A stretch of 64,000 nt of DNA from positions 19,130-83,129 of the IMG/VR virus record IMGVR_UViG_2919450847_000005, one strand, 5' to 3'. A program made the position numbers and the translations under genes. This DNA comes from a virus (taxonomy: Duplodnaviria > Caudoviricetes). Of this stretch, positions 13,568-30,632 are shown piece after piece. The notes beneath the pieces are model-generated. The model did no database searches, was not told the origin of the DNA, and was given only the letters and a program-made list of their open reading frames with translations. Position 1 is the first letter of the stretch. Each line of letters begins with the position of its first letter.

Positions 13568-13620
13568 CACTTGCCGACGCGGTGAGCCGCAGAGGCAGCC
13601 GGGCCGAAAGGCACCCGGCG

Positions 13621-13633
13621 GCTCTTTGAAAAT
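13621..13633 (+). promoter_or_regulatory. boxA-like antitermination element preceded by a GAAA-capped hairpin
   Basis: GCTCTTTGAAAAT resembles rrn/lambdoid boxA; hairpin GCCGGG-CCGAAAGG-CA-CCCGGC at 13598-13619. Confidence 0.5.
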
Positions 13634-14656: not shown

Positions 14657-14795
14657 CTGTCCTCGCCCTTCGCGGTAATTCAGGGGGGGCGGCGCTAATG
14701 CCGCCCCTGTCTGCCGTGTCCCTACGTGAGCGCGCCTTCTACGCGCTGACGCGGCGACATGCCGATCCCGCAATCATGCGACAATGGAGACTTCT

Positions 14796-15155
14796 ATGCG
14801 CCGCCCGACGCCCGTATTGCGTCCGCACTATCGCACGCCGTTCATCAGCCGGGAGGGCGCCCGCGCGCTCATTGCTGCCGCGGTGCTTTCGTTCACGGGT
14901 GCGGCCATCCCCGTCGCGCTGATCTTGAACGACATGCCGCAGATGCCGCTGGTGCAGCGCATCGCGTCGGCTCGCGCGGATGTGCTCGCCCGTCCGTGTT
15001 TCACCGACACGGACTGCCGGCGCCGCATCGCTGCGCACGGCGTGGATCCCGTCTACTATGAGGGGCCCGACGAGTGGCTGGAGTCCGGCTGCCTCGCGAA
15101 GCGTGATCGGACCGCGTGCGCCTATCTGGCGGCTTGGCGGCAGATCGAACCGTGA
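14796..15155 (+). CDS. Hypothetical protein with a TM segment and a Cys-containing C-terminus
   Basis: RBS GGAGAC 14786-14791; ORF track. Confidence 0.65.
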   Translation: MRRPTPVLRPHYRTPFISREGARALIAAAVLSFTGAAIPVALILNDMPQMPLVQRIASARADVLARPCFTDTDCRRRIAAHGVDPVYYEGPDEWLESGCLAKRDRTACAYLAAWRQIEP

Positions 15156-15376
15156 GCCAAGTTCACAATGAGCGCACCAAGCTGACAGCCAATGCGCTCG
15201 ACCGGGCCTCTACCGCCTGCCTGACGGTCGGGGTACTTGGGCCCGGCGCCGCCGCGCTCTACGGCGTGGGCGGAGCGTCGGCCGGCGGGTGGATCGTCGC
15301 CGGCGCCCTGCTTTGGCTGTCCGCCGCTGCGGTGCTACACTCCATGGCACGCCGCACCCTCGGGAGCCTCAGATGA
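15152..15376 (+). CDS. Small membrane protein
   Basis: GTG overlapping the upstream TGA; NERTKLTANALDRAST plus two hydrophobic segments. Confidence 0.7.
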   Translation: MSQVHNERTKLTANALDRASTACLTVGVLGPGAAALYGVGGASAGGWIVAGALLWLSAAAVLHSMARRTLGSLR

Positions 15377-15486
15377 CCGGCCTTTGGATCTTCGCCTTCG
15401 TGGTGCTGCCCATCGTCGTCGTCGCCATGGGCTATGCCGCCATGCGCCTCAACGAGCGCAACATCGGCCTTCCCGCCGGCGAATAG
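15373..15486 (+). CDS. Small single-TM protein (37 aa)
   Basis: ATGA coupling; MTGLWIFAFVVLPIVVVAMGYAAMRLNER. Confidence 0.65.
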   Translation: MTGLWIFAFVVLPIVVVAMGYAAMRLNERNIGLPAGE

Positions 15487-15512
15487 CCGCAGCACCAGCA
15501 CCATTCGCACAG

Positions 15513-15538
15513 GGCCGCCCGCTCTCGGGCGGCCTTTT
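15513..15538 (+). terminator. Rho-independent terminator
   Basis: GGCCGCCC-N6-GGGCGGCC-TTTT. Confidence 0.7.
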
Positions 15539-15728
15539 GCTTTCCCACGCCCGGGCTCTTCTGCGCCGCCGGCTGTAGGCGGGCATGAGACCGTGCGCAG
15601 CATAGGAGACTGCCATGCGCCGGGCCTGAAAGCCGGCTCCAGCACCATCGGCGGGAGATCAGCGCGCCCGTCCCGCCCGTGAAACCGGACGCGCACCCCT
15701 GCAATCATGCACCCCCACGGAGACCCCC

Positions 15729-15980
15729 ATGTTGCGCTACCTGCGCATGACGTGGATCGTTGTGCGGTTCTCGCTCAACGTCCGCGCCTCCTTCGCCGAC
15801 TTTGTCGAACTGCACGCCCTCTGCACGTTGGTCGTCGCCAGAGCCCAAACCCCGACCGGGCCCATGCTCCTTGGCCAGGCTCGCGCCAAGGTGCGCCGCA
15901 TGCGCATCGCTCGCGCGCTTTCCCGTGCCCGGCGGGAAGCGCCCCGCGGCTGGTACACGCCGCCGCCGCACGTCGCCTGA
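15729..15980 (+). CDS. Hypothetical protein
   Basis: Leader motif plus GGAGAC RBS. Confidence 0.55.
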   Translation: MLRYLRMTWIVVRFSLNVRASFADFVELHALCTLVVARAQTPTGPMLLGQARAKVRRMRIARALSRARREAPRGWYTPPPHVA

Positions 15981-15991
15981 CGGAGGCGGTC

Positions 15992-16222
15992 ATGAAGAGT
16001 CGCGACCGCCGAAAATGGCTGGAAATGCGCGCCGAGACGCTGGGCGATATCCGGTTCTGGCAGAATCAGCACCACCAGTCCTACGCGCTCGCCGTCTCAA
16101 GCATGGCCCTTAAGCGATACGGCCAAGCCGCCACCGCACAGCGCCGCCAAGCCTGCGCGCACACCAAAATGTCGGGCGCCCTCCGGCACCTCGCCGAGAT
16201 CAACGACGCGCTCGGGCTGTAG
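15992..16222 (+). CDS. Hypothetical protein
   Basis: GGAGG RBS; ATG 15992. Confidence 0.6.
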   Translation: MKSRDRRKWLEMRAETLGDIRFWQNQHHQSYALAVSSMALKRYGQAATAQRRQACAHTKMSGALRHLAEINDALGL

Positions 16223-16311
16223 CTCCTGCTGCACCTGCGCGCTTTCTCACGACCTGCACTTTCTTCGACGACCAGCACCCCGGCGAACATGCCTCCAGGA
16301 GACCAGCCCCC

Positions 16312-16503
16312 ATGAAACCCGCCATCCCCTACGTCTATCGCGTCAGCCGCCGTCAGCGCGCCCGCCGCAACCGGTGGACGCTGTCTGTCATCCCTCCGCA
16401 TGGCCAGCCCGACATCCTCGCCCGTTACGGCTCCCGCCGGCAGGCGGTCGAGGCCGCCGATATTCTCGCCTCATGCGGCGGGATGGTTGAGGTGCGGTCA
16501 TGA
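16312..16503 (+). CDS. Hypothetical protein
   Basis: Leader motif plus RBS. Confidence 0.6.
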   Translation: MKPAIPYVYRVSRRQRARRNRWTLSVIPPHGQPDILARYGSRRQAVEAADILASCGGMVEVRS

Positions 16504-16784
16504 TCAAGAACGCTCTGCACACGCCTCTGCGGCTCTCGGACCGCCGATCGGATGTGGTCACCAATGCATTCGGCGTCGACATCGCGCAGTGCATGTCGGT
16601 CGACCATGCTTTGCCGCTGATCCATGCCGCAAACTGCCATGACGACATGCTGGCGGCGCTGATCGGCCTCGTTGGTAACGGGTTCACTGACGAAGAGCTG
16701 GCGCGACGTTGGTCGTGGCGCATTGAGGATATCCGCACGGCCCGCGCCGCCATCGCCAAGGCGGAGGGCCGGGCCGATGGCTGA
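16500..16784 (+). CDS. Hypothetical protein
   Basis: ATGA coupling. Confidence 0.6.
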   Translation: MIKNALHTPLRLSDRRSDVVTNAFGVDIAQCMSVDHALPLIHAANCHDDMLAALIGLVGNGFTDEELARRWSWRIEDIRTARAAIAKAEGRADG

Positions 16785-17031
16785 GGCATCCGGCTTCTGC
16801 ACCTGGCTCGCCGCCCGCCATGGCACCCGCTGGTGCGTGGCGCAGCGCCTCACCGACCGCCTGCGTCGGCAGGGCTATGACCTCGCCCTGTCCCCGAAGA
16901 AGTATGCCGCGCTCGAGGCGGAATACGAGCGCCTGACCGGCGAGCAGGCCCGCCAGATCGCCGCCGACTATGAACGCCGCTACGGCGCGCCGCTCGCCGC
17001 CATGCTGAACGGGGGCTACACCAATGGCTAA
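16777..17031 (+). CDS. Hypothetical protein
   Basis: GGAG RBS; 8-nt overlap. Confidence 0.55.
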   Translation: MAEASGFCTWLAARHGTRWCVAQRLTDRLRRQGYDLALSPKKYAALEAEYERLTGEQARQIAADYERRYGAPLAAMLNGGYTNG

Positions 17032-17272
17032 GGGGAAAATCGTCTACCAGAAGTCCGTCGCGGTCGAGCCGAACGAGTCGATCACGGCCTACTGGTTCAA
17101 GCACTACCTGAACCCCGGCGTCGGCTTGTGCGGCCTGTGCGGGAACTCCGGCACGATCGACACCACGGCAACGGCGATCAGCGCCGCAGGGGTCCGCGCC
17201 GGCGGCCGGTTCCTCTGCATCTGTCCGAACGGGCAGGCTTTGCGCAATGCTGGAGAGCACCTCGATGCCTGA
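17024..17272 (+). CDS. Hypothetical zinc-finger-like protein
   Basis: CGLCGNSG...CICPNG; coupled. Confidence 0.65.
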   Translation: MAKGKIVYQKSVAVEPNESITAYWFKHYLNPGVGLCGLCGNSGTIDTTATAISAAGVRAGGRFLCICPNGQALRNAGEHLDA

Positions 17273-17552
17273 CCATCCCAACATCCGCCGCTTCCTCGAC
17301 CTGTCGACGGCGCACCTCAAGCTGGAGACGCGCGGCCTCTGGTCGACCACGTTCAATCGCCCGGTTCATGTCCACCAGATCGAGTACGGCTTCTTCGTCT
17401 GGGCCGGCACCGATGAGGACGATGGCACGGACGACGGCTGGCCGACCGAGGTCGCCGCCTGCCGCAAGCTCGCCCGCTCGCTCGACTGCGACTACCTGCT
17501 GTTCGACGCCGATGCGGACACCGTCGAAGGACTGGAGGTGTTCGATGACTAG
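17265..17552 (+). CDS. Hypothetical protein (LDLSTAHL motif, DUF5983-like)
   Basis: FLDLSTAHL...YGFFV...YLLFDADA. Confidence 0.7.
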   Translation: MPDHPNIRRFLDLSTAHLKLETRGLWSTTFNRPVHVHQIEYGFFVWAGTDEDDGTDDGWPTEVAACRKLARSLDCDYLLFDADADTVEGLEVFDD

Positions 17553-17781
17553 GTGGCTCTCCCCGACCGGCAGCCTGATCATCGGCACGCTGGAGAACAT
17601 CCCCGGCATCGCCCGGCTCATCGATATCAGCGACGATGGCCGCATCGAATACCTGGGCGGAACTGACATCCTTTGGGATGGGCAGGCGACCGTCCAGCGC
17701 GACGGCAAGTCGGTCTTCGTCGACGAGGGCGGGGACGAGTGGGCCTTCGACCAGCTGGTGAAGGCGCCGGCCGATGGATGA
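17545..17781 (+). CDS. Hypothetical protein
   Basis: GGAGG RBS; MTRWLSPTGSLIIGTLE. Confidence 0.65.
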   Translation: MTRWLSPTGSLIIGTLENIPGIARLIDISDDGRIEYLGGTDILWDGQATVQRDGKSVFVDEGGDEWAFDQLVKAPADG

Positions 17782-18382
17782 CCTCACCTCTCGACTAGCC
17801 GCTAAGCTCCGCGAGGTCTTAGAGTTCTTCAACGACGCGCCCCGCTTCAGCCTGCGCAACAACCGCCGGCGGGACTCCTATCAGATCGCCGGTGAGATCG
17901 ACCTCCTGCTCGAGGAAGCGGACGGTTCGGCCCCGCCACCCGCGCCTAGCATCCCCTCGGACACGGCGCTGAATGTCCGCATGTCGGACGCCAAGAGCTA
18001 CACGCCGCTGCAGATGGAGGCGGCTCTCTGCGCCTGGGAATGGATGCTCGAGCACCAGTCGCTTGGAGCCGACAACACCGACCTCTGGGAAGCCATGGGC
18101 GCCAGCGCCATGCGCAATTGCTCGATACAGGCCGGCTGCATCGCGCTGCTGGTCCACGAGCACATGGAGGCGCAGGGATACGAGTTCATCGGGGCGTACG
18201 ATTGGGAGTTCGTTCCCTCCATTCTGGAGCGGCTGGACTGGCGGGCACTGGCAAACGACAACCAGTATCACCTCGTGCCCTACAGGCCCGATGTCGCGGC
18301 GCTGTTCGTGGTCGTCCTCACCGCGGATATGGCAACTCATCCGCCTAGCCACCGCCTCTTTTTCAAGCGGGGCGCCGCATGA
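17774..18382 (+). CDS. Hypothetical protein
   Basis: 202-aa coupled ORF. Confidence 0.7.
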   Translation: MDDLTSRLAAKLREVLEFFNDAPRFSLRNNRRRDSYQIAGEIDLLLEEADGSAPPPAPSIPSDTALNVRMSDAKSYTPLQMEAALCAWEWMLEHQSLGADNTDLWEAMGASAMRNCSIQAGCIALLVHEHMEAQGYEFIGAYDWEFVPSILERLDWRALANDNQYHLVPYRPDVAALFVVVLTADMATHPPSHRLFFKRGAA

Positions 18383-18783
18383 TCGGCGACCTGTTCCGCG
18401 AGGCTCTCCCGCATCGGCTCGCGCCAGACCATCCCGTCCATCTTGTCGGCCCCTATGCCCGCCAGACTCTACACGGCTTCCGGCTCAAGTTCTGGTTCGC
18501 CATGACGGGGCACAAGGATGGCACTCGGAGGTACGAACTGGCTTTCGATGTCGGCGACCCGAAAGGCAGGCACAGGTATCGCGGATCGGGCGAGCCGGGC
18601 GACTATCGGGAGCACACCCTGCCGGGTGACCTGTCGCTCTATCCTTCGATGCCGTTCCCGGCGCACGGCCAGCGCATCGAAGACGCGCTGACGTCGATGC
18701 TCACCGGAGACGACCTTGCCGACGTCGTTCGGCTCACGCGCTTCGGCATCATGCCGGCGCGCTGCATCATCGAGGAGGGCTGA
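18379..18783 (+). CDS. Paralog-family protein 1 (most divergent member)
   Basis: FWFAM...YELAFDV; C-terminal DALTSMLTGDDLADVVRL. Confidence 0.65.
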   Translation: MIGDLFREALPHRLAPDHPVHLVGPYARQTLHGFRLKFWFAMTGHKDGTRRYELAFDVGDPKGRHRYRGSGEPGDYREHTLPGDLSLYPSMPFPAHGQRIEDALTSMLTGDDLADVVRLTRFGIMPARCIIEEG

Positions 18784-18784
18784 C

Positions 18785-19135
18785 GTGCCCGACATCGAAG
18801 CGATCAAGGCGAGGATCGACTACCTAGGACGAGCGCCGCACGGCCATAAGGCACGTGTGCTCCATTGGACTTTCTTCGCGAAGCCCCCGGGCAAAGCCGT
18901 CTGGGAGATCACTTTCGACCTAGACGAACGGAGCTTCTCATCCCGAGGGAGGAGGCGAGATCGCATAAAATCCGCGCGGACGCCCGCCAGCTTTCACGCC
19001 ATCCTGATGGCGCTCTTACCGCCTGATGAAATCGCCTATGCAACGGCGGCTTCGATTACAGGCCTGACGCCGCGGAAGCGCCCGCGCAAGCCAAGCCCCC
19101 CCGCCGAGAATGGCACAACCCGGAGACCAGCGTGA
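18785..19135 (+). CDS. Paralog-family protein 2
   Basis: HWTFF...WEITFDLDERSF; AILMALLPPDEIAYATAASI. Confidence 0.75.
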   Translation: MPDIEAIKARIDYLGRAPHGHKARVLHWTFFAKPPGKAVWEITFDLDERSFSSRGRRRDRIKSARTPASFHAILMALLPPDEIAYATAASITGLTPRKRPRKPSPPAENGTTRRPA

Positions 19136-20037
19136 ACGTCATGACCCAACACCAGTCCGTATCCACCGTCCTTGCCTCCCGGGCGATGCTCGTATCGCTG
19201 TCCATCTCGCAATGGTCCGGCCACAGGCTGGACCGGAAGGTCACCGACGAGGTGAACCAGCAGCACAACGCCGCCGCTGACGCCGGCCGCTACAACAAGC
19301 ATCTTCTTCCGAAGGCGGCACTCGCCGGCATCGTCAGCGTCGTGAGCGAGACGAAGGCCGGCTTCTATGGCCGGACTCTGCCGTGGATGGACAGCGGCGC
19401 CCGGATCATGGCGGCGCACGCCTACCTCCCTCACATGGCCTGGATCCGCAAGCAGTCGAGCAAGTTCGACAAGGCCGTGGACACCTTCATCGGCGCCTAT
19501 CCGGGATACGTCCGGGACGCCCAGGCCCGGCTGAACGGCATGTTCAAGCCGGAGGATTACCCCGACGCCGATGTGCTGCGCGGCAGGTTCGCCATGCAGG
19601 TGAAGGTCCTGCCGGTGCCGACCTCCGATGACTTCCGGGTCGATATGAGCGAGGCGCAGGCAGCGATTATCCGCAAGGAGATCGAGCAGCAGGTGACCGA
19701 CGCCACCACGTCGGCGGTTCGGGACATCTACGACCGCGTCGCCGAGGTCACGGGCCGCATGGTCGAACGGCTGAACGCCTACCGGCCGGCGGTGAAGGAG
19801 GGAGACCGCGCCGAGGGCGTCTTCCGGGACTCCCTGGTCGGCAACATCCGCGACCTGATCGACGTGCTGCCGGGGCTCAACATCACCGGGGATCCCCAGC
19901 TGGCCGCGATGGTCGAGAAGCTGCGGCCGCTCGCCGAGCACGACGCACATGTGCTGCGCGACAACCCGAGGATCCGGCGCGATGTCGCAGCCGAGGCGCA
20001 GGCGATCCTCGACAGCATCGGGGGCTTCCTGGCGTGA
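19132..20037 (+). CDS. DUF3150-like protein
   Basis: MLVSLSISQWSGHRLDRKV...TLPW...EDYPD; family often found beside AAA/VWA genes in mobile elements. Confidence 0.75.
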   Translation: MNVMTQHQSVSTVLASRAMLVSLSISQWSGHRLDRKVTDEVNQQHNAAADAGRYNKHLLPKAALAGIVSVVSETKAGFYGRTLPWMDSGARIMAAHAYLPHMAWIRKQSSKFDKAVDTFIGAYPGYVRDAQARLNGMFKPEDYPDADVLRGRFAMQVKVLPVPTSDDFRVDMSEAQAAIIRKEIEQQVTDATTSAVRDIYDRVAEVTGRMVERLNAYRPAVKEGDRAEGVFRDSLVGNIRDLIDVLPGLNITGDPQLAAMVEKLRPLAEHDAHVLRDNPRIRRDVAAEAQAILDSIGGFLA

Positions 20038-20330
20038 AGGCGCTCCCGGACGACTTGTGCTTCATCGCAGGACGGACGGTCACGGCGCACACGATCACCT
20101 GGGAGTTCCGCAGCGAGGCCGAGTTCGCATCGCGTCGGCCTACCCGCTTCTTCCTGGTGATGGACATCGCCAGCAGAACCTTCGACACGACGCAGCGGCC
20201 GACCGCCCCGGCGATTAAGAGCGACTATCCGGCCGGAGTCGAAACCCTGCGCTCGCTCCTTCCGACGAAGGAACTGGTGTTGGCGACCGCTCTCTCCATC
20301 ACCCACCGACAATCGGCTCCCCCCGCTTAG
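20034..20330 (+). CDS. Paralog-family protein 3
   Basis: TWEFR...FFLVMDIASRTF; ETLRSLLPTKELVLATALSI. Confidence 0.75.
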   Translation: MKALPDDLCFIAGRTVTAHTITWEFRSEAEFASRRPTRFFLVMDIASRTFDTTQRPTAPAIKSDYPAGVETLRSLLPTKELVLATALSITHRQSAPPA

Positions 20331-20414
20331 CCAGGGCGCGGCAGGCGAGGGCAGGGGCGGGGCGCCATCACCCCCAAGATGGCGCCCCGTTTCCTATCAA
20401 CTGGAGGACCAAGC

Positions 20415-20822
20415 ATGCCGCCAACTTCAAGGCCGGCACCGCCGTCGCACACCATCACCTACCTGCTCATCCCGGTGATCGGTGACATCAAGACATTCGA
20501 ACTCGCACGACCTCGCGATGAAGAAGATTACGGCCGGATGCTCCAAGGCATTCGCCAGCATTTCGATGAACGTTTCGAGCATGTGGCCGTGCTCTACAAC
20601 GGAGAGCGCCGGGACATGTTCGTCGGAGAGACCTCGGCGATCAACGGCCGCCACATCCGCAACGTGCGGGCCACCGCGATCTACCGGGCCAATGCTCGGG
20701 CCCAATGGTTGGCGGGGCTGCACTCCCTCGACCGCGTCCCCGTCGTCGGCTTCAACGCCGAAGCCCTGCCGGCCATCAGCGGCCCGGCGGTCCTATTCCC
20801 TGCCACACTCGTCTGGCGCTAA
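20415..20822 (+). CDS. Hypothetical protein
   Basis: GGAGG RBS; ATG 20415. Confidence 0.65.
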   Translation: MPPTSRPAPPSHTITYLLIPVIGDIKTFELARPRDEEDYGRMLQGIRQHFDERFEHVAVLYNGERRDMFVGETSAINGRHIRNVRATAIYRANARAQWLAGLHSLDRVPVVGFNAEALPAISGPAVLFPATLVWR

Positions 20823-20878
20823 GCCCTGTGCAGGGCCGCTCCGCATCCCCGCCGATCATGGCGCAAATGGAGACCTCC

Positions 20879-21880
20879 ATGCATATCAAGTCCGCCGCCC
20901 TCAATCTGGCCGACTATCTCGATGAGGACACGCCCGCCTTCATGATGGGGCCGCCTGGCATCGGCAAGTCGGCCATCGCCCGGCAGATCGCCGTATCGCG
21001 CGGCTGGAACCTGATCGACTTCCGCGCCTCGACCCGCGATCCCGTTGCCCTGATGGGGCTGCCCGACCTCTCCGACGCGACCACGAAGTGGAAGGTTCCC
21101 GACGAGTTCCCGCAGGTGGAGCGCGATGGCGAGGAGGGCATTCTCTTCCTCGACGAGCTAAACGCCGCGGCGCCGTCCATGATGGCCGCCATGTTCGGCC
21201 TGGTGCTGGACCGGCGTGTCGGCGACTACCAGCTGCCGCCGGGCTGGCGCGTGGTGGCGGCGGGCAACCGGCAGGCGGACCGCGCGGCGGCGCAGCGCAT
21301 GCCGACGGCCCTGGCCAACCGCTTCGCTCACATCGAAGTCAGCGCCGACACCAGCGGCGACCACGACAACGTCCACGTCGAGCACTTCAACACGATCGGT
21401 GTCGACCCGATCCTCATCGCCTTCCTGCGCTTCCGGCCGGCGCTCATCCACAGCATGCCGACCAATGATGCGCTGGCCTTCCCCACGCCGCGCTCTTGGG
21501 AGCAGGCGGCGAAGTACATCGGCAAGCCGTCATCCCGTCGGCTCAGCCTCATCACCGGCGTGGTTGGGGAGGGCGCGGCGGCCGAGCTCGAAGGCTTCAT
21601 CCGCGTCTACCAGAACCTCCCGTCGCTCGACCTGGTGCTGTCGAAGCCTGACACCACGCAGCTGCCCGCCGATCCGGCGGCTCGCTTCGCCATCTCGGCC
21701 GGCCTCGCCCGGAAGGTGGACGAGAGGACGTTCGCCAACGCCATGGTCTACATGCGCCGGCTGCCGCGCGAGTTCGAGATCATGTTCACCGTCGACGCCG
21801 TGCGGCGCGACACCAAGCTCTCGCACACGCCCACCTTCACCGACTGGGCCGTGCGCAACCAAGACGTGACGCTCGGCTGA
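20879..21880 (+). CDS. MoxR-like AAA+ ATPase
   Basis: Walker A GPPGIGKS, Walker B ILFLDELN, VVAAGN, ALANRF, PTPRSWE. Confidence 0.92.
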   Translation: MHIKSAALNLADYLDEDTPAFMMGPPGIGKSAIARQIAVSRGWNLIDFRASTRDPVALMGLPDLSDATTKWKVPDEFPQVERDGEEGILFLDELNAAAPSMMAAMFGLVLDRRVGDYQLPPGWRVVAAGNRQADRAAAQRMPTALANRFAHIEVSADTSGDHDNVHVEHFNTIGVDPILIAFLRFRPALIHSMPTNDALAFPTPRSWEQAAKYIGKPSSRRLSLITGVVGEGAAAELEGFIRVYQNLPSLDLVLSKPDTTQLPADPAARFAISAGLARKVDERTFANAMVYMRRLPREFEIMFTVDAVRRDTKLSHTPTFTDWAVRNQDVTLG

Positions 21881-21883
21881 GCC

Positions 21884-22273
21884 ATGGCGAATGCCCCCAT
21901 CGTGTGGATAGCCGGACCGGTCGGGTTCCAGATCAGCAACTCCATCGAAGCGGATGCGACCATTACCCGGTTCAGCCATGTGGTCACAGCCGCACGATGG
22001 GAGTTCGTCGGCCGCAGCGAAGCGGACGAACTCCGCCGCTGGGCCCTGCGGTTCGAGCTGAGCTCGCGGAAGTTCACGGTCAACAGCCTGAACGTCAGCA
22101 AGTGGGAGCAGGCGCACAGACAGCGCCTGTTCGACCTCTACCGGCCGGCCGCCATTCTACGCCGTGACCTTGCGGGCCGAAGCATGCTTGCCGCCATGCG
22201 ATCGATGCTCACCGATATCGAGATCGCGGAGCTCACCGCGCTGGCCATCCGTGGCGGAGCCGCCGATGGCTAG
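21884..22273 (+). CDS. Paralog-family protein 4
   Basis: RWEFV...WALRFELSSRKF; AAMRSMLTDIEIAELTALAI. Confidence 0.78.
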   Translation: MANAPIVWIAGPVGFQISNSIEADATITRFSHVVTAARWEFVGRSEADELRRWALRFELSSRKFTVNSLNVSKWEQAHRQRLFDLYRPAAILRRDLAGRSMLAAMRSMLTDIEIAELTALAIRGGAADG

Positions 22274-22586
22274 GATCAAGCGCATCTGGGGGCCGAGCAA
22301 GCGCGCCGACAGCCCCGGCATGGCGGTGTGGACGTTCTCGGCTGAGCATGAGGACGGTCGCACCGCCATGTACCGGCTGACCTTCTTCCTCGACAGCCGG
22401 CGATTTAAGGTCAACCACCTCGGCGAGGACAAGCAGGCCAAGGCCTATCTGCAGACCATGCATACCTTGATGAAGCCGGACGACGGGATCTTCGAGGGCA
22501 AGGTCACCGACATCCTCAAAGCGCGGATCCCTCCGGAGCAATTGGCGGCCGTCACGGCGCGCGCCCTCCTGCATGGGAGAAAGTGA
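22266..22586 (+). CDS. Paralog-family protein 5
   Basis: VWTFS...YRLTFFLDSRRF; DILKARIPPEQLAAVTARAL. Confidence 0.8.
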   Translation: MARIKRIWGPSKRADSPGMAVWTFSAEHEDGRTAMYRLTFFLDSRRFKVNHLGEDKQAKAYLQTMHTLMKPDDGIFEGKVTDILKARIPPEQLAAVTARALLHGRK

Positions 22587-22960
22587 TGGCAATCATCCGC
22601 AAGGTGCTCGGCCCGTTCAGCCCTGAGGCTGTTCACCCAGGCACGAAGGACGCGGAGCTGCGCTGGTACTTCGTCGGCATCCGTGGCGACCAGACCACCG
22701 CGCATTGGGCGCTGATCTTCAAGGCAGAGGATCGGAAGTTCACCGTCTCCACCAGCCAACTCGGCAGCGCGTGGCGCGGGAATTCCATGGCGCGCGCGTC
22801 GAGGGAACTCGGCGACGCGTACCCAAGCGTGGTGGTCCATCCCGATGCGTTTCTCGACGGCAGCCCAGTGGAGGAGGGACGTGTCGTCGACATCCTGCGC
22901 AAACGCCTGAACCCTGAGGATTTCGCCAAAGCCACGGCGTTGGCGATTGCTAGGAGGTGA
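22586..22960 (+). CDS. Paralog-family protein 6
   Basis: RWYFV...WALIFKAEDRKF; DILRKRLNPEDFAKATALAI. Confidence 0.8.
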   Translation: MAIIRKVLGPFSPEAVHPGTKDAELRWYFVGIRGDQTTAHWALIFKAEDRKFTVSTSQLGSAWRGNSMARASRELGDAYPSVVVHPDAFLDGSPVEEGRVVDILRKRLNPEDFAKATALAIARR

Positions 22961-22962
22961 GA

Positions 22963-23307
22963 ATGGAGCGTGCCTATGGCGTAAAGAGGAGGGGGGACTT
23001 CCGCTGGATGATCGAGCAGCGCGTCGCTAAGGCGCCCATCATGCGGTTCGATCTGAGGTTCTCGATCGCAACCCGCACCTTCGACTGCTCCGTCTGGAAG
23101 AGGTATTCAAAGGCCAGCCCATGGATGAATCGCAAACCCGCTACTGAAGCCGAGCTCGCCATGGCGAAGCAGGCCATCGGCGCCGAAGAAATTGCCCGCT
23201 GCGTCGCCGCCTCTCTCGCGACTTCAGGATCGATCGCGGACACCAGGCGCGCCGTGAATTCCTGGCTTATCGGGACCTCCGACGGCATTCACCCGAGGCG
23301 CGCGTGA
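22963..23307 (+). CDS. Paralog-family protein 7
   Basis: RWMIE...FDLRFSIATRTF; AMAKQAIGAEEIARCVAASL. Confidence 0.75.
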   Translation: MERAYGVKRRGDFRWMIEQRVAKAPIMRFDLRFSIATRTFDCSVWKRYSKASPWMNRKPATEAELAMAKQAIGAEEIARCVAASLATSGSIADTRRAVNSWLIGTSDGIHPRRA

Positions 23308-23627
23308 CAACACGGCAAGAGCGTTGGCTTGTCGCGATCGAAGGCCCCACCGAACGCACGGCCATTCCCGACTGGCATCTCGATAGAGGCGGCGCCATCG
23401 AGTGGTGCTGGCGCTTCCACCGGCGCGGCGATAAGACCCGGTCTTATCTTCTTTCGATCAACCTGGGCTCAAGGGAGTGGCAGGCTCTGCATAAGCCTCG
23501 CCGCATTGAAGAAGGGTACAGGTTCCCTTCGCTGTCCCGAGCCATCCCGCTCCTCCGCTCCAGACTTTCTCACCAGGACGTCGCCGAACTGACAGCGGCG
23601 CTGATCACACGCGGGGCGAAGCCATGA
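23304..23627 (+). CDS. Paralog-family protein 8
   Basis: CWRFH...YLLSINLGSREW; PLLRSRLSHQDVAELTAALI. Confidence 0.75.
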   Translation: MTTRQERWLVAIEGPTERTAIPDWHLDRGGAIEWCWRFHRRGDKTRSYLLSINLGSREWQALHKPRRIEEGYRFPSLSRAIPLLRSRLSHQDVAELTAALITRGAKP

Positions 23628-24043
23628 AAGCCGAGACGCTGCGCAAATACTATGGCGCTCCGACGCTCGACCGGAGTCTTCCGATCCCCAGCTTCGTATG
23701 GCACCCGAAGAAGAGAGGGTGGCCGAAGACGAGCTACCGCCTCAGCTACAGCCCGAGCGGCAGGATGTGGTTCGGTTCGACCCACATTCGCATCAGTCGC
23801 CTCACGAAGAATCCCAGCGCAACCGGGCCGCTCAACCCGCCGGATGTCGAGATCCTAAAAGCCGCGCTCAAGCCCGAGCAGATCGCCATGTGCGCCGCAG
23901 CCTCGATCGAGGCGACCAAGCGACCGCAGGGCGATGCGGTCGTGACGGTTTCCCACGTCCAGTACACCCGCGTCATCAACCTCAAGATCTCCGCCGGGGG
24001 GCATACCTTCACCTCTCCGCCCACCAACAGAGGCGTACCATGA
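23624..24043 (+). CDS. Paralog-family protein 9 (C-terminally extended)
   Basis: VWHP...YRLSYSPSGRMW; EILKAALKPEQIAMCAAASI. Confidence 0.72.
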   Translation: MKAETLRKYYGAPTLDRSLPIPSFVWHPKKRGWPKTSYRLSYSPSGRMWFGSTHIRISRLTKNPSATGPLNPPDVEILKAALKPEQIAMCAAASIEATKRPQGDAVVTVSHVQYTRVINLKISAGGHTFTSPPTNRGVP

Positions 24044-25197
24044 ACACCGACGATAAGATCCTCGCCGCGAAGACGGCGCTCATGTGGGACCACCCGTTCT
24101 TCTCGGTGCTGCTGGTCCAGCTGAAGATGATCGATGCGACAGACGACCCGCGCATCAACACCATGGCGACCGATGGGCGGCACCTCTACTACGACCGGAA
24201 GTTCGTCGACGGCCTGAAGAAGGACGAGCTCGTCTTCGTGCTGGCCCACGAGGTCATGCACAACGCGATGCTGCACAGTATCCGACGGCAGGAGCGGCAC
24301 CACATGCTGTTCAACATCGCCTGCGACTACGCGATCAACGGCGAGCTCAAGGCGTGCAACGTGGGTACGATGCCGAAAGCTGGGCTCATCGACGATCGGT
24401 TCACAGGCCTCGGCGCCGAGGAAATCTACCGCATCCTGCTGGAGGAGAACCCGGCGGCAGCAGCCGCGGCGTCGCAGCCTGGCGCGGACCCAGGCGGGTG
24501 CGGCGGCGTGCTCGATGGCTGCGCACAGCACGACGAGGCGGCCAAGGCCGAGCTGAAGGCCGAGATCATGACGCAGGTGCAGCAGGCGGCGATGGTCGCC
24601 AAGGCCACCCAAGCCGGGAAGCTGCCCGCCGGCATCGCGCGGCTCATCGACCAGCTGCTCGCGCCCAAGGTCGACTGGCGCGCCGTGCTGCGCCGCTTCA
24701 TCGACGAGTCCTCGCACCGCGATTTCAGCTGGGCCAAGCCGAACCGCCGGCTCATCCCGCACGGCATCTATACCCCGAGCACGATCAGCGACGGCGTCAG
24801 CCACATCGTGATCGCGGTCGACACGTCAGGGTCCATCGATGACGCGATCCTTCGGGACTTCGCCGCCGAGATCAACGGGGCGTTCGGCGAGGGGGCGGTC
24901 GATCGGCTGTCCGTGATCTACGCCGACGCCCAAGTGAACCACATCGAGGAGTTCGAGACCGGCGACGAACTGGTGCTGCACCCCGCCGGCGGCGGCGGCA
25001 CGGCATTCAGCCACACGTTCAAGACGATCGCTGACCAGTTCCCGGATGCGCGGGCCACGATCTACCTGACCGACATGCACGTCTGCGACTTCGGCGAGGA
25101 ACCGCCCATGCCGACGCTCTGGGGCGTCTATGGGCGGACCAAAGACTTCGGCTCGCTTACCCCGCCGTTCGGCGAATGCATCAATATCAGCGTCTAG
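24040..25197 (+). CDS. DUF2201-like metallopeptidase plus VWA domain protein
   Basis: TMATDG...HEVMH (HExxH); MIDAS DTSGS; GGGGT; YLTD. Confidence 0.9.
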   Translation: MNTDDKILAAKTALMWDHPFFSVLLVQLKMIDATDDPRINTMATDGRHLYYDRKFVDGLKKDELVFVLAHEVMHNAMLHSIRRQERHHMLFNIACDYAINGELKACNVGTMPKAGLIDDRFTGLGAEEIYRILLEENPAAAAAASQPGADPGGCGGVLDGCAQHDEAAKAELKAEIMTQVQQAAMVAKATQAGKLPAGIARLIDQLLAPKVDWRAVLRRFIDESSHRDFSWAKPNRRLIPHGIYTPSTISDGVSHIVIAVDTSGSIDDAILRDFAAEINGAFGEGAVDRLSVIYADAQVNHIEEFETGDELVLHPAGGGGTAFSHTFKTIADQFPDARATIYLTDMHVCDFGEEPPMPTLWGVYGRTKDFGSLTPPFGECINISV

Positions 25198-25209
25198 AAA
25201 GGGGCGAAG

Positions 25210-25929
25210 TCACTTTTCCTCCCGCTGAGTGGTGGCAGTGGACACAGCTAAGAAGGCAAAATCCGCCATGATAAGCGCGTTGACGCTCGATTTCATGGTG
25301 GAATAGGTCACGATACCATGAATGCAGGCATGTCGGTTGGGGACTGGGTCTCGTGAAATGGCCTCGATGGATTCCTTTGTCTTCAGCTTTTTGTACATGT
25401 GATTTGTTAACTTCTCAATGAGCCCGTACGTAAACATACCGCCACCATCTGCGTACTCTGCGATTACTTCGCCGGAGCTCCTTTGCAATTCATGGAGGCT
25501 TGAAATCATTTTCCCGGGCTCATCTTTTTTATGCCAAGTGATGCGCCCCAATCGCTCAAGTTCCGGAAATATCAATCGAGGTACAGATCTATAAAATCCT
25601 GCCTCATGGCAATTGATAGCCTCTTCGAATGTCGCTTTAGCTTCATCGTCGATATTGTGTTTGGAGACCGAGCTGAGCAAAGTGTGGCGGACCGCGATCC
25701 AGTTGTCGCGATAAAATTCTTCGAGTCGCAGGTCTAGTATTGCTGGGTCCAGAAATACGGATTCTTCAAAATCTGGTGTCGTTGCGTGAGGTAGCCATCC
25801 GGATAAGATGACCTGATCAGATCTAGCGATAGCTTTATTGAAACCTTCGACGGCTCTAGATATGTTCCGAAGGATGTTCGTGAACGGAGTTATGTCGATG
25901 CGAGGGAATAACTGTCGAATCGTGGTCAC
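25210..25929 (-). CDS. AT-rich moron; putative HEPN-domain protein
   Basis: Opposite strand, visibly lower GC, NRHACIHG (R-x4-H) near the C-terminus. Confidence 0.65.
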   Translation of the reverse strand: MTTIRQLFPRIDITPFTNILRNISRAVEGFNKAIARSDQVILSGWLPHATTPDFEESVFLDPAILDLRLEEFYRDNWIAVRHTLLSSVSKHNIDDEAKATFEEAINCHEAGFYRSVPRLIFPELERLGRITWHKKDEPGKMISSLHELQRSSGEVIAEYADGGGMFTYGLIEKLTNHMYKKLKTKESIEAISRDPVPNRHACIHGIVTYSTMKSSVNALIMADFAFLAVSTATTQREEK

Positions 25930-26054
25930 TTTCCCCTCATCAATCTCAAGAGCATGAGGTGTGATATATAACCGTAGTTATCTCATTCTGACAGAAATTT
26001 TTAGATCCGCTCACGACCAACGCCCCGCCGCTAATGGCAATCAAGGAGACCGGC

Positions 26055-26663
26055 ATGCCCATCTTCGACATCTTCGTGACCAAGAGCGGCGTGGAGCGCC
26101 ATAGCGTGAATGCTGCTTCTTTCGCTGACGCGCTGAAGCTTTTTCATTTCGGCGAAACGACCATCAAAGACGACGTGACGAGTGACATCGCGCAAGTCAT
26201 TTTCGAGGATCGGGAGACGGGAGCGCGTCTCACCGACGAGCAGATCGAGGCGGGTGCGAGCGAGAACGCCGAACCCGTCGTCCGCTCGTATGGCGTCCGG
26301 CTGTGGGGCACCTTCCGCGGCTGCGCCACCACGGAGGTCGAGGCGACCAGTTTCGAAGAGGCGATGGCGAAGGCAGCCGAGCTTGAGCACTTATACTTCG
26401 GGTTCTCGCTCGAGGACGGGATCGAGGGCGATCAGACGATGAGCGTGTTCGGCCCGGCGGACGACGCTCCCGACGATGAGGATGCCTGGGGCGGGGACGG
26501 CACGGAAATCGACAAGCGCGACGACGGCGAGCCCTTCAGCTGGGACGCGGTGAACATCGTGAAGGATCTGGCCAAGGCCAGCCCCGACGGCAACACCGAG
26601 ATCATCATGACGCTATCGACGTTCATCGACCGTGCGAAGAATGCCTGCTCGAAGGAATCGTAG
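26055..26663 (+). CDS. Acidic hypothetical protein
   Basis: Leader motif plus RBS. Confidence 0.7.
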   Translation: MPIFDIFVTKSGVERHSVNAASFADALKLFHFGETTIKDDVTSDIAQVIFEDRETGARLTDEQIEAGASENAEPVVRSYGVRLWGTFRGCATTEVEATSFEEAMAKAAELEHLYFGFSLEDGIEGDQTMSVFGPADDAPDDEDAWGGDGTEIDKRDDGEPFSWDAVNIVKDLAKASPDGNTEIIMTLSTFIDRAKNACSKES

Positions 26664-26665
26664 AC

Positions 26666-26956
26666 GTGAACCCGGCGCGTCTCCGGCCGCTGATCGCAAA
26701 GGTCGAGGTATGCGAGAGCCACACCGACAAGAACGCGATCTACATCGACTTCTGTGACGAGCAGCGCACACGCTGGTACGTCATATTCCTGACCAAGCGG
26801 CGGGGCTTCGGCGTCGCGCGGCGCTTGCGCCCGGATGGGCAAGGCGGCTGTGAAATTCCTGCCCGCCTCCGAACCTACCTGATCTCCATCATACCGCCCG
26901 ACATCATCGCCCGCTGCACGGCCGCCACGCTCGGCCTTAACGCCGCCCGAGACTGA
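26666..26956 (+). CDS. Paralog-family protein 10
   Basis: YIDFC...WYVIFLTKRRGF; TYLISIIPPDIIARCTAATL. Confidence 0.72.
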   Translation: MNPARLRPLIAKVEVCESHTDKNAIYIDFCDEQRTRWYVIFLTKRRGFGVARRLRPDGQGGCEIPARLRTYLISIIPPDIIARCTAATLGLNAARD

Positions 26957-27811: not shown

Positions 27812-29005
27812 CTAGTCTTTCTTGCCGGTGATCAACTCGATGAGGTTGGGAGGAATGACGTCCGGTTCGCCACTGCCGGGCGGAGCCCGGAAAAGCGCGT
27901 TCAGTGCGAGCGCGCGCTCTTCCCGGCTCACCTTGACCCCGGGTTCACCCACGAGACCGATGAATGTGTCTGCGATGGCCTTTCTTTGGCGTGCGTCATC
28001 AAGCATAGCTAGGTTCTGCATCATGAACCGGCTGATGATGCGCAGAAGCCACGCGGCGCCAAGAACTGGCGCCGCTATAAGCGCGGTGACCGCCAGTTGG
28101 TTGTTCTGTCCAGCCACATCTATGAGGCCGCGCACGTAATCCCCGCCGAATTCATACAGCAGCAATACCGATCCGACGAGTACAAGAACAAAAAAGAAAA
28201 TATTAGCCGCGAGCCATTTGCTATGTCCGTCTCCCTTGCTTTTCCATAGGGCAACGACGGGGGAAATCGTAGATAGCTCTTTCTGAGCAGATCTCAGAAG
28301 TTCTATCTGCTCTTCAGTCGCCTTTTTTGCCTCGTTCATGTCATGTATCATGCCGGCGGCCTGGTCTTTTATCAATTGCGCCGCTGACTCCGCCGAGCTT
28401 TTATATATTTCGATATCAGTATTGGCGTAATTCAACTCTTTCAATATAGATTCTATTTTTGTTGTTGCCGATTCATTTATTCTGTCGTTAATGGATGAAA
28501 GTAATTTCTCGGTTTCATCGACTGCAGAGTTGATCTTGTCAACGGCAAGTCTGCTGCTTTCTTCGGCAGAGATAATAAGTTTTTCCGCGTTTTTTCTTAT
28601 TGCAGTTTCGTATACTTCTGTTGAACTCGCAATATGTTGAACTCTGTCTTTAATGGTAGAGCCGAGGATGAATTGCCAAGTCGAATCCGATATGGCGACC
28701 CCTTTGTTATTTAGTTGCTCTTTGATCATTATCATGGATTGATACGGGTACAATTTAACGTAGTCCCCGATTTCCTCCCCGGCTGCTTGTCTCAGCCCAA
28801 GCGCTTTTCGAGGCTTAGCAGAGCCTAAGGCGTTTTCAAAAACCCGAGCGGTTTCTGGCCCATAAAGTGATATAAAGTTAGAAAAAACTGCTGCGATAGC
28901 TTTATCTTGTTCGCTTAAGCTTAGTGCTCCGACCGAATTTGCTGTAGCGATTACCTGTAAATTGTGGATAAGCCACTCAGAAAAATCCATACCGGACATC
29001 GTCAT
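27812..29005 (-). CDS. AT-rich moron; coiled-coil protein with C-terminal TM helices (DUF6161-like); start uncertain (29005 or 29125)
   Basis: Low GC, long heptad region, two TM helices, then WLLRIISRFMMQNLAMLDDARQR. Confidence 0.7.
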   Translation of the reverse strand: MTMSGMDFSEWLIHNLQVIATANSVGALSLSEQDKAIAAVFSNFISLYGPETARVFENALGSAKPRKALGLRQAAGEEIGDYVKLYPYQSMIMIKEQLNNKGVAISDSTWQFILGSTIKDRVQHIASSTEVYETAIRKNAEKLIISAEESSRLAVDKINSAVDETEKLLSSINDRINESATTKIESILKELNYANTDIEIYKSSAESAAQLIKDQAAGMIHDMNEAKKATEEQIELLRSAQKELSTISPVVALWKSKGDGHSKWLAANIFFFVLVLVGSVLLLYEFGGDYVRGLIDVAGQNNQLAVTALIAAPVLGAAWLLRIISRFMMQNLAMLDDARQRKAIADTFIGLVGEPGVKVSREERALALNALFRAPPGSGEPDVIPPNLIELITGKKD

Positions 29006-29041
29006 TTTGATTCCCAGGGGCAAATTTGCGGGAGAGTTTCT

Positions 29042-29140
29042 GTGAAGGTCGATCTTTCCGGCCGAATCTGGGTACGTCGTATTCTCTTCGTACTCATCAT
29101 CGTGGTAGTGGTGACGGCATGGCAATGGCTGATCGGGTGA
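29042..29140 (+). CDS. Unannotated 32-aa hydrophobic peptide
   Basis: GGAG at 29031, GTG start; VKVDLSGRIWVRRILFVLIIVVVVTAWQWLIG. Confidence 0.45.
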   Translation: MKVDLSGRIWVRRILFVLIIVVVVTAWQWLIG

Positions 29141-29144: not shown

Positions 29145-29354
29145 CTACTCCGGCTGTCCGGTCACCGCGATCCGGGCCGCCCGAGCGTAAAACGCCATCT
29201 CGGTATCACCGTCGATCAGCCGGTCGAGCAGCTCCTTCATGTCCCGCTGGTCCGACAAGGACTGGAACGGGCCCGGCTGCCTTTCAATCGCCAGCACGGC
29301 GATCGCCAGTGCCTTCTTCACCAAGTGAAGATCTCGCCCCGTAAACTCGACCAT
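29145..29354 (-). CDS. Small hypothetical protein
   Basis: AGAGGGG RBS; 69-aa ORF. Confidence 0.65.
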   Translation of the reverse strand: MVEFTGRDLHLVKKALAIAVLAIERQPGPFQSLSDQRDMKELLDRLIDGDTEMAFYARAARIAVTGQPE

Positions 29355-30568: not shown

Positions 30569-30632
30569 CAACCTGCCGGGAGGCGGATAGCCGCCTCCCA
30601 CCCCCGCCGATCATGGCATTCAGGAGATACCC

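What the first reader, a model, noticed from the sequence alone, without database searches (positions are those of the whole stretch)
18379..26956. Ten divergent paralogs interleaved with a DUF3150 / MoxR AAA+ / metallopeptidase-VWA triad: candidate variable-adaptor system
Seen: ten small coupled ORFs (18379, 18785, 20034, 21884, 22266, 22586, 22963, 23304, 23624, 26666) share W-x-F-x(6-14)-[WYF]-x-L-x-F-x3-R-x-[FW], a variable middle, and a C-terminal helix consensus L-[RK]-x2-[LI]-x-P-[ED]-[EDQ]-[IL]-A-x2-T-A-x-[AS]-[IL]. Examples: DILKARIPPEQLAAVTARAL, DILRKRLNPEDFAKATALAI, EILKAALKPEQIAMCAAASI, AILMALLPPDEIAYATAASI, TYLISIIPPDIIARCTAATL. Six fill the whole gap between the ATPase and the HExxH-VWA gene, and three lie around the DUF3150-like gene. 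Known: MoxR ATPases work with VWA partners as remodelling chaperones, and AAA/VWA/DUF3150 genes co-occur in ICEs and phages. Inference: the conserved helix docks on the ATPase/VWA machine or a shared host factor, while the diversified beta-sheet selects different targets such as host defence proteins. That would be an expandable, substrate-programmable remodelling or proteolysis module. I do not recognise this as a described system.
Basis: partly seen in the sequence, partly recalled or inferred. Interest (0 to 1): 0.85.

Follow-up and report, generated by a model that had tools for sequence, protein, structure and literature searches.

The report
Small paralog family around phage MoxR-vWA module
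The arrangement recurs in related phages, and with unrelated small families in two distant phages, so these are probably the machine's exchangeable small partners, though no binding has been shown.

Summary
All ten ORFs exist at the stated coordinates, look coding (GC3 0.69-0.87) and mostly overlap their neighbours by 4 nt. All ten belong to one family. Profiles stripped of each subfamily's detectable relatives still find that subfamily against 59,045 genome ORFs (E 6e-10 to 2e-3). No eleventh copy exists in the genome.

- **Setting:** the early operon of a prophage, not an ICE.
- **Family:** no Pfam, NCBIfam, PHROG or PADLOC match, and about 178 clusters among 1.84 billion representatives. 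A confident AlphaFold model (pLDDT 90) has no PDB or viral match. The family is strongly basic (median pI 10, against 5.3 for neighbouring small genes).
- **Context:** every sampled relative lies in the same DUF3150-like / AAA_5 ATPase / zincin-vWA block of related Hyphomicrobiales-type prophages, with about 3-10 copies.
- **Age:** copies form position-specific orthologous clades, so the duplications are old and the order is fixed. They still evolve faster than the triad (33-57% against 69-79% identity).
- **Limits:** the triad also occurs without them. No binding test was possible.
- **Parallels:** unrelated paralog arrays flank the same gene pair in phages Presley and phiFa.

The adaptor reading is partly supported. 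Earlier scan notes report similar associations on other DNA; these are unverified leads.

The parts
18379..18783 (+). paralog p1 (134 aa), the 'pre-DUF3150' subfamily
   Evidence: Stripped-profile E 3.8e-6. Forms a clade with the same-position copies of L016, L001 and L022, support 100/100. 46% identity to the L016 copy.
18785..19135 (+). paralog p2 (116 aa)
   Evidence: Stripped-profile E 6e-10. Pairwise 20 bits to p10. No clear positional ortholog.
19132..20037 (+). DUF3150-like protein (301 aa), mostly long helices
   Evidence: No direct Pfam hit. 1117 homologues, some carrying PF11348. AF2 pLDDT 87.6, with only generic helical-bundle matches. Preceded by the leader cassette.
20034..20330 (+). 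paralog p3 (98 aa), the 'post-DUF3150' subfamily
   Evidence: Stripped-profile E 3.5e-5. Pairs with L016_5963 in the same position. P0103 occupies the same position in L028.
20379..20822 (+). conserved 147-aa gene, not a family member
   Evidence: Orthologues in L016, L028, L026 and L022 at 43-57% identity. Family HMM E 0.7.
20879..21880 (+). MoxR/CobS-like AAA_5 ATPase (333 aa)
   Evidence: PF07728 29.1 bits against a cut-off of 22. phrog_1297 at 8.8e-82. Walker A GPPGIGKS and Walker B LFLDE are visible. Homologues in 810 phage records, including rV5-type 'MoxR ATPase'. The start follows the leader cassette.
21884..22273 (+). paralog p4 (129 aa), first after the ATPase
   Evidence: Leave-one-out E 3e-10. 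Forms a clade with the first-after-ATPase copies of L016, L017 and L022.
22266..22586 (+). paralog p5 (106 aa), the modelled member
   Evidence: Leave-one-out E 1e-9. AF2 pLDDT 90.3, pTM 0.79. Clade support 97/93 with L021, L025, L022, L016 and L018.
22583..22960 (+). paralog p6 (125 aa)
   Evidence: Leave-one-out E 1e-10. 50% identity to the L016 and L021 copies.
22957..23307 (+). paralog p7 (116 aa)
   Evidence: Stripped-profile E 1e-7. Pairs with L022_15826.
23304..23627 (+). paralog p8 (107 aa)
   Evidence: Leave-one-out E 2e-6. Clade with L016_9371, support 100/97, 44% identity.
23624..24043 (+). paralog p9 (139 aa), last before the vWA gene
   Evidence: Leave-one-out E 5.5e-3. Clade with the last-before-DUF2201 copies of L016, L021, L022, L025 and L018.
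24040..25197 (+). zincin metallopeptidase + vWA protein (385 aa)
   Evidence: PF13203 at 7e-48 and PF09967 at 3.8e-20. phrog_1314 at 7e-99. HExxH (H70 E71 H74) and MIDAS D261-x-S263-x-S265, T321, D345 are invariant in 7 orthologues. Homologues in 752 phage records.
26666..26956 (+). paralog p10 (96 aa), downstream outlier after a 209-aa gene
   Evidence: Stripped-profile E 1.7e-3. 57% identity and a 99/97 clade with the same-position copy L016_11823.

Best explanation
Shown: Members are about 100 aa, strongly basic and stand-alone, with a predicted five-strand beta-meander followed by helices. They sit at fixed, translationally coupled positions in the early operon of a temperate phage, around a DUF3150-like gene, a MoxR/CobS-like AAA_5 ATPase and a zincin-vWA protein with intact HExxH and MIDAS motifs. 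Inferred: they are the exchangeable small partners of that ATPase/zincin-vWA machine, either clients or target-selecting adaptors. All paralogs keep the same scaffold, including the C-terminal helix and the conserved R45, R/K85 and D/E92, while surface loops and the middle helix differ between subfamilies. By analogy with known MoxR-vWA systems, the vWA MIDAS would hold a conserved acidic or handle element of each paralog. The ATPase ring would remodel the bound complex, and the fused zincin domain could cleave either the paralog or whatever it brings. The likely purpose is early host takeover or counter-defence. Binding, cleavage and targets are all unshown.
For: 1. Exclusive co-location. Every family member placed on a contig with usable flanks lies inside the DUF3150-like..DUF2201 block or just downstream of it: L001 has 4 copies, L016 has 8, L017 and L018 at least 2-5, L021 3-4, L022/23 8, L025 at least 8, L026 8, L028/29 7, plus the P0046 contig. 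L022 carries the block on a different head/terminase backbone. 2. Fixed positions and old orthologous clades, with 4-nt overlaps to the ATPase and vWA genes. 3. Core conserved, surface diverged. Orthologues are 33-57% identical against 69-79% for the triad. 4. Independent parallels that I checked. In N4-like phage Presley, eight paralogs with a shared C-terminal motif plus a ninth with a variant of it sit directly upstream of the ATPase and between the ATPase and the vWA gene. The strict motif occurs in 8 of 60 CDS, and all 8 are in that array. In Thermus phage phiFa, most paralog links among 61 CDS involve genes flanking the pair. 5. Established knowledge: vWA MIDAS domains hold clients for MoxR-type ATPases, as in midasin, RavA-ViaA and the ATV tail system. 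Zincin peptidases paired with small, fast-diverging proteins that keep a conserved C-terminal part are also described (Kaur et al. 2020, PMC7159879). 6. A rV5-type phage MoxR ATPase is required to overcome a predicted defence system (bioRxiv 10.1101/2025.11.20.689424). rV5-type MoxR ATPases are homologues of the window's ATPase (32% identity, E 5e-19).
Against: The triad occurs without the family: Pseudovibrio axinellae L024 has the ATPase and vWA genes abutting, G776 L030 lacks it, and isolated phages lack it. All family-bearing loci are related prophages with wide synteny, so co-location is partly inherited and not fully independent. In other phages the ATPase-to-vWA gap holds unrelated genes (MazG in CRP-7, RNase H in phiFa), so the gap tolerates insertions. 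The conserved residues fit a buried core, and the acidic position is only 58-83% conserved. Paralog arrays may simply be common in phage early regions; my controls cover only 40-45 kb of two phages. The family's positive charge fits nucleic-acid binding just as well.
Confidence: 0.42

Rival explanations
1. The paralogs are independent early accessory proteins. They act on their own, binding nucleic acid or host proteins for takeover or counter-defence. They sit near the triad only because the family arose and duplicated in a permissive stretch of one prophage lineage's early operon and was inherited with it.
For: The family is confined to one group of related prophages. Only the window's own genome among 401 same-class genomes has it, and there are 178 clusters worldwide. 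The ATPase-to-vWA gap holds unrelated genes in other phages. Copies also lie outside the gap (p1, p2, p3, p10). The triad works without them. Median pI is 10.0, with 90% of members above 9, against 5.3 for 62 non-family small proteins of the same operons. The best weak structural neighbours are nucleic-acid binders: SpoVG at Z 4.7 and Pur-alpha at Z 4.1.
Against: The block keeps its paralogs on a different phage backbone (L022). Positions are fixed next to each triad gene, not in one tandem pile. Unrelated paralog arrays flank the same pair in Presley and phiFa. The structural matches are below any meaningful level.
Confidence: 0.33
2. The ATPase/zincin-vWA pair is a virion-assembly chaperone and protease, as proposed for jumbo phages. 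The basic paralogs would be small virion or DNA-associated proteins that it folds, processes or loads.
For: Iyer et al. 2021 (PMC7824862) propose this role for the same MoxR + metallopeptidase-vWA pair. They cite the ATV MoxR-vWA tail-assembly system. Small basic proteins could be packaged with DNA.
Against: The block lies in the early/replication-side operon with DnaN, a methylase, DnaB and RecT. It is on the opposite strand from the head and tail genes. In N4-like phages the pair also sits beside replication genes. No paralog resembles a known structural protein.
Confidence: 0.08
3. The paralogs assemble with each other into a hetero-oligomer, such as a ring or filament, whose subunits are the fixed-order subfamilies. 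The MoxR-vWA pair would serve as its assembly factor.
For: The subfamilies are old, kept in fixed order and translationally coupled. The C-terminal helix carries two small-residue ridges (A94/A98 and A96/S100), the kind used for close helix-helix packing. Known MoxR-vWA pairs mature specific multi-subunit complexes.
Against: Copy number ranges from 3 to 10 between related phages, which is hard to square with a fixed stoichiometric complex. No oligomer prediction could be run.
Confidence: 0.07

Closest known systems
Phage MoxR-type AAA+ ATPase + metallopeptidase-vWA pair (N4 gp24/gp25 type; PHROG 1297 + 1314; Pfam AAA_5 + DUF2201_N/DUF2201; Iyer et al. 2021, PMC7824862)
   Same: The window's ATPase and zincin-vWA genes belong to this pair: phrog_1297 at 9e-82 and phrog_1314 at 7e-99, in the same ATPase-then-vWA order, with homologues in 750-810 phage records.
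   Different: Here the pair is joined by a DUF3150-like gene and interleaved with ten copies of a lineage-specific small family. That family is not described with the pair and is absent from the isolated phages I checked.
Zincin peptidase + small fast-diverging precursor proteins (FxSxx-COOH type) attached to vWA-MoxR ternary conflict systems (Kaur et al. 2020, PMC7159879)
   Same: A vWA-MoxR context, a zincin peptidase, and small rapidly diverging proteins whose C-terminal part is the most conserved.
   Different: There is no FxSxx, RxD or acidic C-terminal peptide. The conserved segment is a helix inside a folded domain, not a terminal peptide. There is no radical-SAM, VMAP or AP-ATPase gene. 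The setting is a phage, not a cellular conflict system.
Midasin (Rea1) MIDAS domain with the UBL domains of Ytm1 and Rsa4
   Same: This is a working analogy only. An AAA_5-class motor with a MIDAS domain grips several different small-domain partners through a shared conserved acidic residue, while the rest of each partner differs (general knowledge; listed among MoxR-vWA couplings).
   Different: No homology is shown. The paralogs are not beta-grasp/UBL folds. Their acidic position is only 58-83% conserved.
Presley_22-29 and Presley_32 array of Acinetobacter phage Presley (KF669658.1)
   Same: Nine divergent small paralogs (96-174 aa) sit directly upstream of the ATPase and between the ATPase and the gp25-like vWA gene. 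Eight share the strict C-terminal motif and the ninth carries a variant.
   Different: Unrelated in sequence (hhalign probability 0.2%). Not uniformly basic (pI 5.8-9.6). No DUF3150-like gene.

Membership tests
Pfam DUF3150 (PF11348), for 19132-20037 | Match to the PF11348 profile at the gathering score | tested here: inconclusive
   hmmscan gives no hit, even at E 10. Homologues at 50-62% identity carry PF11348 in precomputed tables and UniRef names, and the L025 orthologue has only a weak hit.
AAA_5 / MoxR-class AAA+ ATPase, for 20879-21880 | AAA_5 domain above the Pfam cut-off, with Walker A and Walker B motifs | tested here: met
   PF07728 scores 29.1 bits against a cut-off of 22. GPPGIGKS and LFLDE are visible. 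phrog_1297 at 8.8e-82.
AAA_5 / MoxR-class AAA+ ATPase, for 20879-21880 | Match to a MoxR-specific model (bpMoxR PF20030 or RavA NF010054) | tested here: not met
   bpMoxR scores 16.2 bits against a cut-off of 27. RavA scores 14.3 against 681. 'MoxR-like' is therefore a class label resting on homology to phage genes annotated as MoxR.
DUF2201_N + DUF2201 zincin-vWA protein, for 24040-25197 | Both Pfam domains above cut-off, with HExxH and MIDAS DxSxS..T..D present | tested here: met
   164 bits and 72.7 bits. H70, E71, H74, D261, S263, S265, T321 and D345 are invariant among 7 orthologues.
Any curated family, for the ten small proteins | Profile match in Pfam, NCBIfam, PHROGs or PADLOC | tested here: not met
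   No hits for the ten proteins. Scanning all 123 members against Pfam gives at most 2 members for any one family, at E about 0.01.
FxSxx-COOH-type peptide-processing system | Small precursor ending in a conserved FxSxx, RxD or acidic peptide, with a stand-alone zincin and often a radical-SAM gene | tested here: not met
   The C-termini are variable and the conserved segment is internal and helical. No radical-SAM domain appears among the roughly 40 window proteins scanned.
vWA-MoxR ternary (VMAP) conflict system | A third large VMAP component next to the MoxR and vWA genes | tested here: inconclusive
   No VMAP-type Pfam hit appears on any gene of the block that I scanned. No dedicated VMAP profile search of the whole window was made.
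Known nucleic-acid-binding folds (SpoVG, Pur-alpha/Whirly, WGR) | Structural match well above background | tested here: inconclusive
   Best Z is 4.7 (SpoVG, 68 residues aligned) and 4.1 (Pur-alpha). No chain reaches Z 5. Foldseek best E is 0.06.

The most novel reading that the evidence does not exclude
Phage MoxR-type ATPase / zincin-vWA pairs may generally operate with lineage-specific sets of small, fast-evolving proteins. Each set would share a conserved handle while differing elsewhere. This would be a programmable client/adaptor system that phages use early in infection to remodel or cleave host factors, including defence proteins. The ten-copy family here would be its richest example so far, the Presley and phiFa arrays would be independent inventions, and the roughly 800 phages with the pair would share a common logic.
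Probability: 0.25. Interest if true: 0.85.

Novelty: new variant of a known kind. Interest (0 to 1): 0.6.

Why it matters
The MoxR ATPase / metallopeptidase-vWA pair is a core gene pair of N4-like phages. It is found in about 800 sequenced phages, yet its function is unknown. The only experimental hint is a 2025 transposon screen that makes a rV5-type phage MoxR ATPase necessary against one predicted defence system. A family of small proteins that always travels with the pair gives concrete candidate partners to test. This one has a confident model, fixed positions and conserved R45, R/K85 and D/E92 residues. If the link holds, it would explain a large block of phage 'dark matter' genes and define a new way phages diversify specificity around one machine.

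Tried and rejected
**Family and fold searches that found nothing**
- Pfam, NCBIfam, PHROGs and PADLOC on the small proteins gave nothing.
- Fold searches of the p5 model: PDB Foldseek best E 0.06; VIA wide had no chain at Z 5 or above; BFVD best E 0.008 with poor TM.
- The 'atlas' fold library was not available. The ESM Atlas feature search scored below 0.8.
- A profile search of PDB sequences gave only chance-level rows.
- I considered a WGR, Pur-alpha or SpoVG relationship and dropped it for lack of signal.

**Searches for fused forms and related loci**
- A search for fused or longer forms found none (weak evidence). The exhaustive search listed only proteins of 85-198 aa. The one 198-aa hit, P0127, has an unrelated repeat N-terminus.
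- The search for related loci with the family alignment failed because no stretch is conserved enough.
- Megablast of the block against plasmids gave no match.
- tblastn of p5 against 50,697 phage records gave only chance hits.
- Representative genomes were a poor sample: 1 of 401 same-class genomes has the family, and 2 of 401 same-order genomes have the DUF3150-like gene.

**Tests that could not be run or were uninformative**
- The DUF3150-like model matched only generic helical bundles.
- Comparing near-identical contigs for microevolution gave nothing because the pairs were identical.
- The 147-aa gene at 20379-20822 was tested as an eleventh copy and rejected.
- The Presley array is not homologous to this family.
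- Literature on DUF2201 and DUF3150 has nothing functional. The plasmid leading-region paper does not mention these genes.

Full report
**Setting.** The window is contig C12:56547-120546 of a 5.63-Mb, 65% GC genome. It holds a prophage.
- Baseplate J, capsid, lambda-type portal and gpA terminase lie on the minus strand at 1.6-11.5 kb.
- A long plus-strand block runs from about 13.8 to 32.7 kb. It contains DUF5983, the region of the finding, a beta-clamp gene (DnaN) and a DUF4942 protein.
- DnaB and a primase-like gene follow on the minus strand. After them come an SMC-like ATPase, RecT, a C5 methylase, a helicase and an integrase at 53254-54288.
- The nearest homologues of the block's proteins come from Rhizobium, Ensifer, Pseudorhizobium, Aurantimonas, Aquibium, Shinella and Pseudovibrio. 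From this I infer that the host is probably a member of Hyphomicrobiales.

They have coding-like GC3 of 0.69-0.87, and most overlap the previous gene by 4 nt.
- Pairwise similarity is weak, at 13-25% identity to the first sequence, but it forms a connected network.
- An HMM built from any nine finds the tenth as the only extra hit among 59,045 whole-genome ORFs for 8 of 10.
- For the five most divergent subfamilies I used the wider family profile after removing every BLAST-detectable relative. All five still score: p1 3.8e-6, p2 6e-10, p3 3.5e-5, p7 1e-7, p10 1.7e-3.
- There is no eleventh copy in the genome. The neighbouring 147-aa gene is a different conserved family.

**What the family is.**
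- No curated library knows it.
- An exhaustive profile search of 1.84 billion representative proteins found 178 clusters at E below 1e-3. The 150 listed hits are all 85-198 aa and each matches in a single stretch. No longer fused form was found.
- Members with a source name are called 'hypothetical protein'.
- AlphaFold2 with a 123-sequence alignment gives a confident model: pLDDT 90.3, pTM 0.79. It has five antiparallel strands, a variable helix, a sixth strand and two C-terminal helices.
- Nothing in the PDB or BFVD resembles it above background.
- Column statistics show that the conserved positions are G9-P10, alternating aromatic or aliphatic residues in strands 3-5, R45, L84, R/K85, L88 and the small/aliphatic face of the last helix. 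The middle helix is present in only about 30% of members.
- I read this periodicity as a conserved hydrophobic core with diverged surfaces. Without model coordinates I could not measure burial.
- The family is strikingly basic. Median pI is 10.0 and 90% of members are above 9. By contrast, 62 non-family small proteins of the same operons have a median pI of 5.3, and the ATPase and vWA proteins are acidic at 5.8 and 5.1.

**Neighbours.**
- The 333-aa gene is an AAA_5 ATPase (phrog_1297). The 385-aa gene is DUF2201_N + DUF2201 (phrog_1314), with invariant HExxH and MIDAS residues.
- The 301-aa gene has no direct Pfam hit, but its homologues carry PF11348. Its model is a helical bundle with no informative match.
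- The ATPase and zincin-vWA pair is common in phages, with 810 and 752 records respectively. These include N4-like, rV5-like and jumbo phages.
- Iyer et al. 2021 described the pair and proposed a virion-assembly role (PMC7824862).
- A 2025 preprint reports that the MoxR ATPase of phage Bas54 is needed to overcome a predicted defence system. I did not test homology to that exact gene. rV5-type 'MoxR ATPase' genes do match the window's ATPase at 32% identity.

**Context of relatives.**
- I placed seven family members from across the hit list on contigs, and five DUF3150-like homologues as independent anchors.
- Every family copy lies in the same block. Counts are 4, 8, 3-4, 8, at least 8, 8 and 7 copies in L001, L016, L021, L022/23, L025, L026 and L028/29.
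- L022 has a different capsid/terminase module, so the block travels as a unit.
- Pseudovibrio axinellae has the triad with the ATPase and vWA genes abutting and no copy. G776 has the triad in another order, also without copies.

**Age and rate.**
- BLAST and a maximum-likelihood tree show clades that follow position, not genome. Eight subfamilies (p1, p3, p4, p5, p6, p8, p9 and p10) each group with the same-position copy in other phages. Several have support of at least 97/87.
- The duplications therefore predate these phages, and the order has been kept. Copy-number differences reflect loss or gain of whole subfamilies.
- Orthologues between the window and L016 are 33-57% identical. The DUF3150-like, ATPase and vWA proteins are 69, 79 and 72% identical.

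**Is the link functional?**
- Against a link: other phages hold unrelated genes in the ATPase-to-vWA gap (MazG, RNase H), the triad can stand alone, and the family-bearing loci are kin.
- For a link, I checked two unrelated phages after earlier scan notes suggested that such pairs often sit beside lineage-specific small families.
- In Acinetobacter phage Presley, eight genes directly upstream of the ATPase and the single gene between the ATPase and the vWA gene are divergent paralogs. Eight of the nine share the C-terminal motif A-[RKQ]-x-[NKR]-L-[LIA]-[GA], and the ninth (Presley_23) carries a variant. That strict motif occurs in 8 of the 60 CDS in the first 40 kb, all in this array. The array is unrelated to the present family.
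- In Thermus phage phiFa, most paralog links among 61 CDS involve genes flanking the pair.
- These are small controls, and early regions may be rich in duplicates anyway. Still, three unrelated lineages show the same picture.
- Kaur et al. 2020 describe zincin peptidases that process small, rapidly diverging proteins with a conserved C-terminal part in vWA-MoxR systems. They also list MIDAS-mediated client capture as the common logic of MoxR-vWA pairs.

**Verdict.**
- The sequence observation is sound, and the family is new to curated resources.
- I favour functional coupling to the ATPase/zincin-vWA machine, as clients or adaptors, at about 0.4.
- An independent role as basic nucleic-acid-binding or host-protein-binding proteins stands at about 0.3.

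Noticed in passing
window 14075-14105, 19098-19131, 20847-20877, 26022-26053, 30601-30632: A repeated leader of the form CCCCGCCG-N3-ATGGC-N-CAAATGGAGACC sits just before the start codons of five block-leading genes: the 14108 gene, the DUF3150-like gene, the ATPase, the 209-aa gene and the DUF4942 gene. DnaN has a partial version. It contains the ribosome-binding GGAGA. None of the ten paralogs has it; they rely on overlapping stop/start junctions. This is the subject of other scan notes.
   Followed up: partly
window 25210-25929 (-), 27812-29125 (-), 29145-29354 (-): Three minus-strand genes of lower GC (the 2-kb windows covering them read 0.54-0.58 against about 0.65) interrupt the plus-strand operon, one just after the vWA gene and two before DnaN. 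They have no Pfam or PADLOC family, apart from a below-cut-off apolipoprotein-like coiled-coil hit on the 437-aa protein. They look like later insertions (morons).
   Followed up: partly
L019/L033 (Acinetobacter phage Presley, record 9772-14837): Nine divergent paralogs (Presley_22-29 and Presley_32) sit next to and inside the N4-type ATPase/gp25 pair. Eight share a C-terminal A-[RKQ]-x-[NKR]-L-[LIA]-[GA] motif and Presley_23 has a variant. All are annotated as hypothetical proteins in the record.
   Followed up: partly
L034 (Thermus phage phiFa, record 7781-18177): Genes flanking the AAA/DUF2201 pair fall into paralog groups: 7781/8498, 12615/13136, 13651/14391/15490/16845 and 16329/17662. 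Few other paralog links exist in the first 45 kb.
   Followed up: partly
L001 19177-20372: A related prophage contig carries a Thoeris-like pair (ThsB TIR and a SIR2/STALD protein) on the opposite strand at the end of the same accessory block. This is probably a prophage-borne defence system.
   Followed up: no
L030 (G776:C3:51400-54600 region): A same-order genome has the triad in the order ATPase, DUF3150-like, zincin-vWA with no small paralogs. Both the DUF3150-like and vWA reading frames are split in two, through decay or sequencing error.
   Followed up: no
window 17247-17552, 29402-30568, 30633-32192: DUF5983 (1.5e-22), a phage-borne beta sliding clamp and a DUF4942 protein share the operon. 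The same set recurs with the triad in related prophages (L016, L021, L024).
   Followed up: no
window 20379-20822: A conserved 147-aa gene just upstream of the ATPase has orthologues in L016, L028, L026 and L022 (43-57% identity). It is not a member of the paralog family and has no known family.
   Followed up: partly
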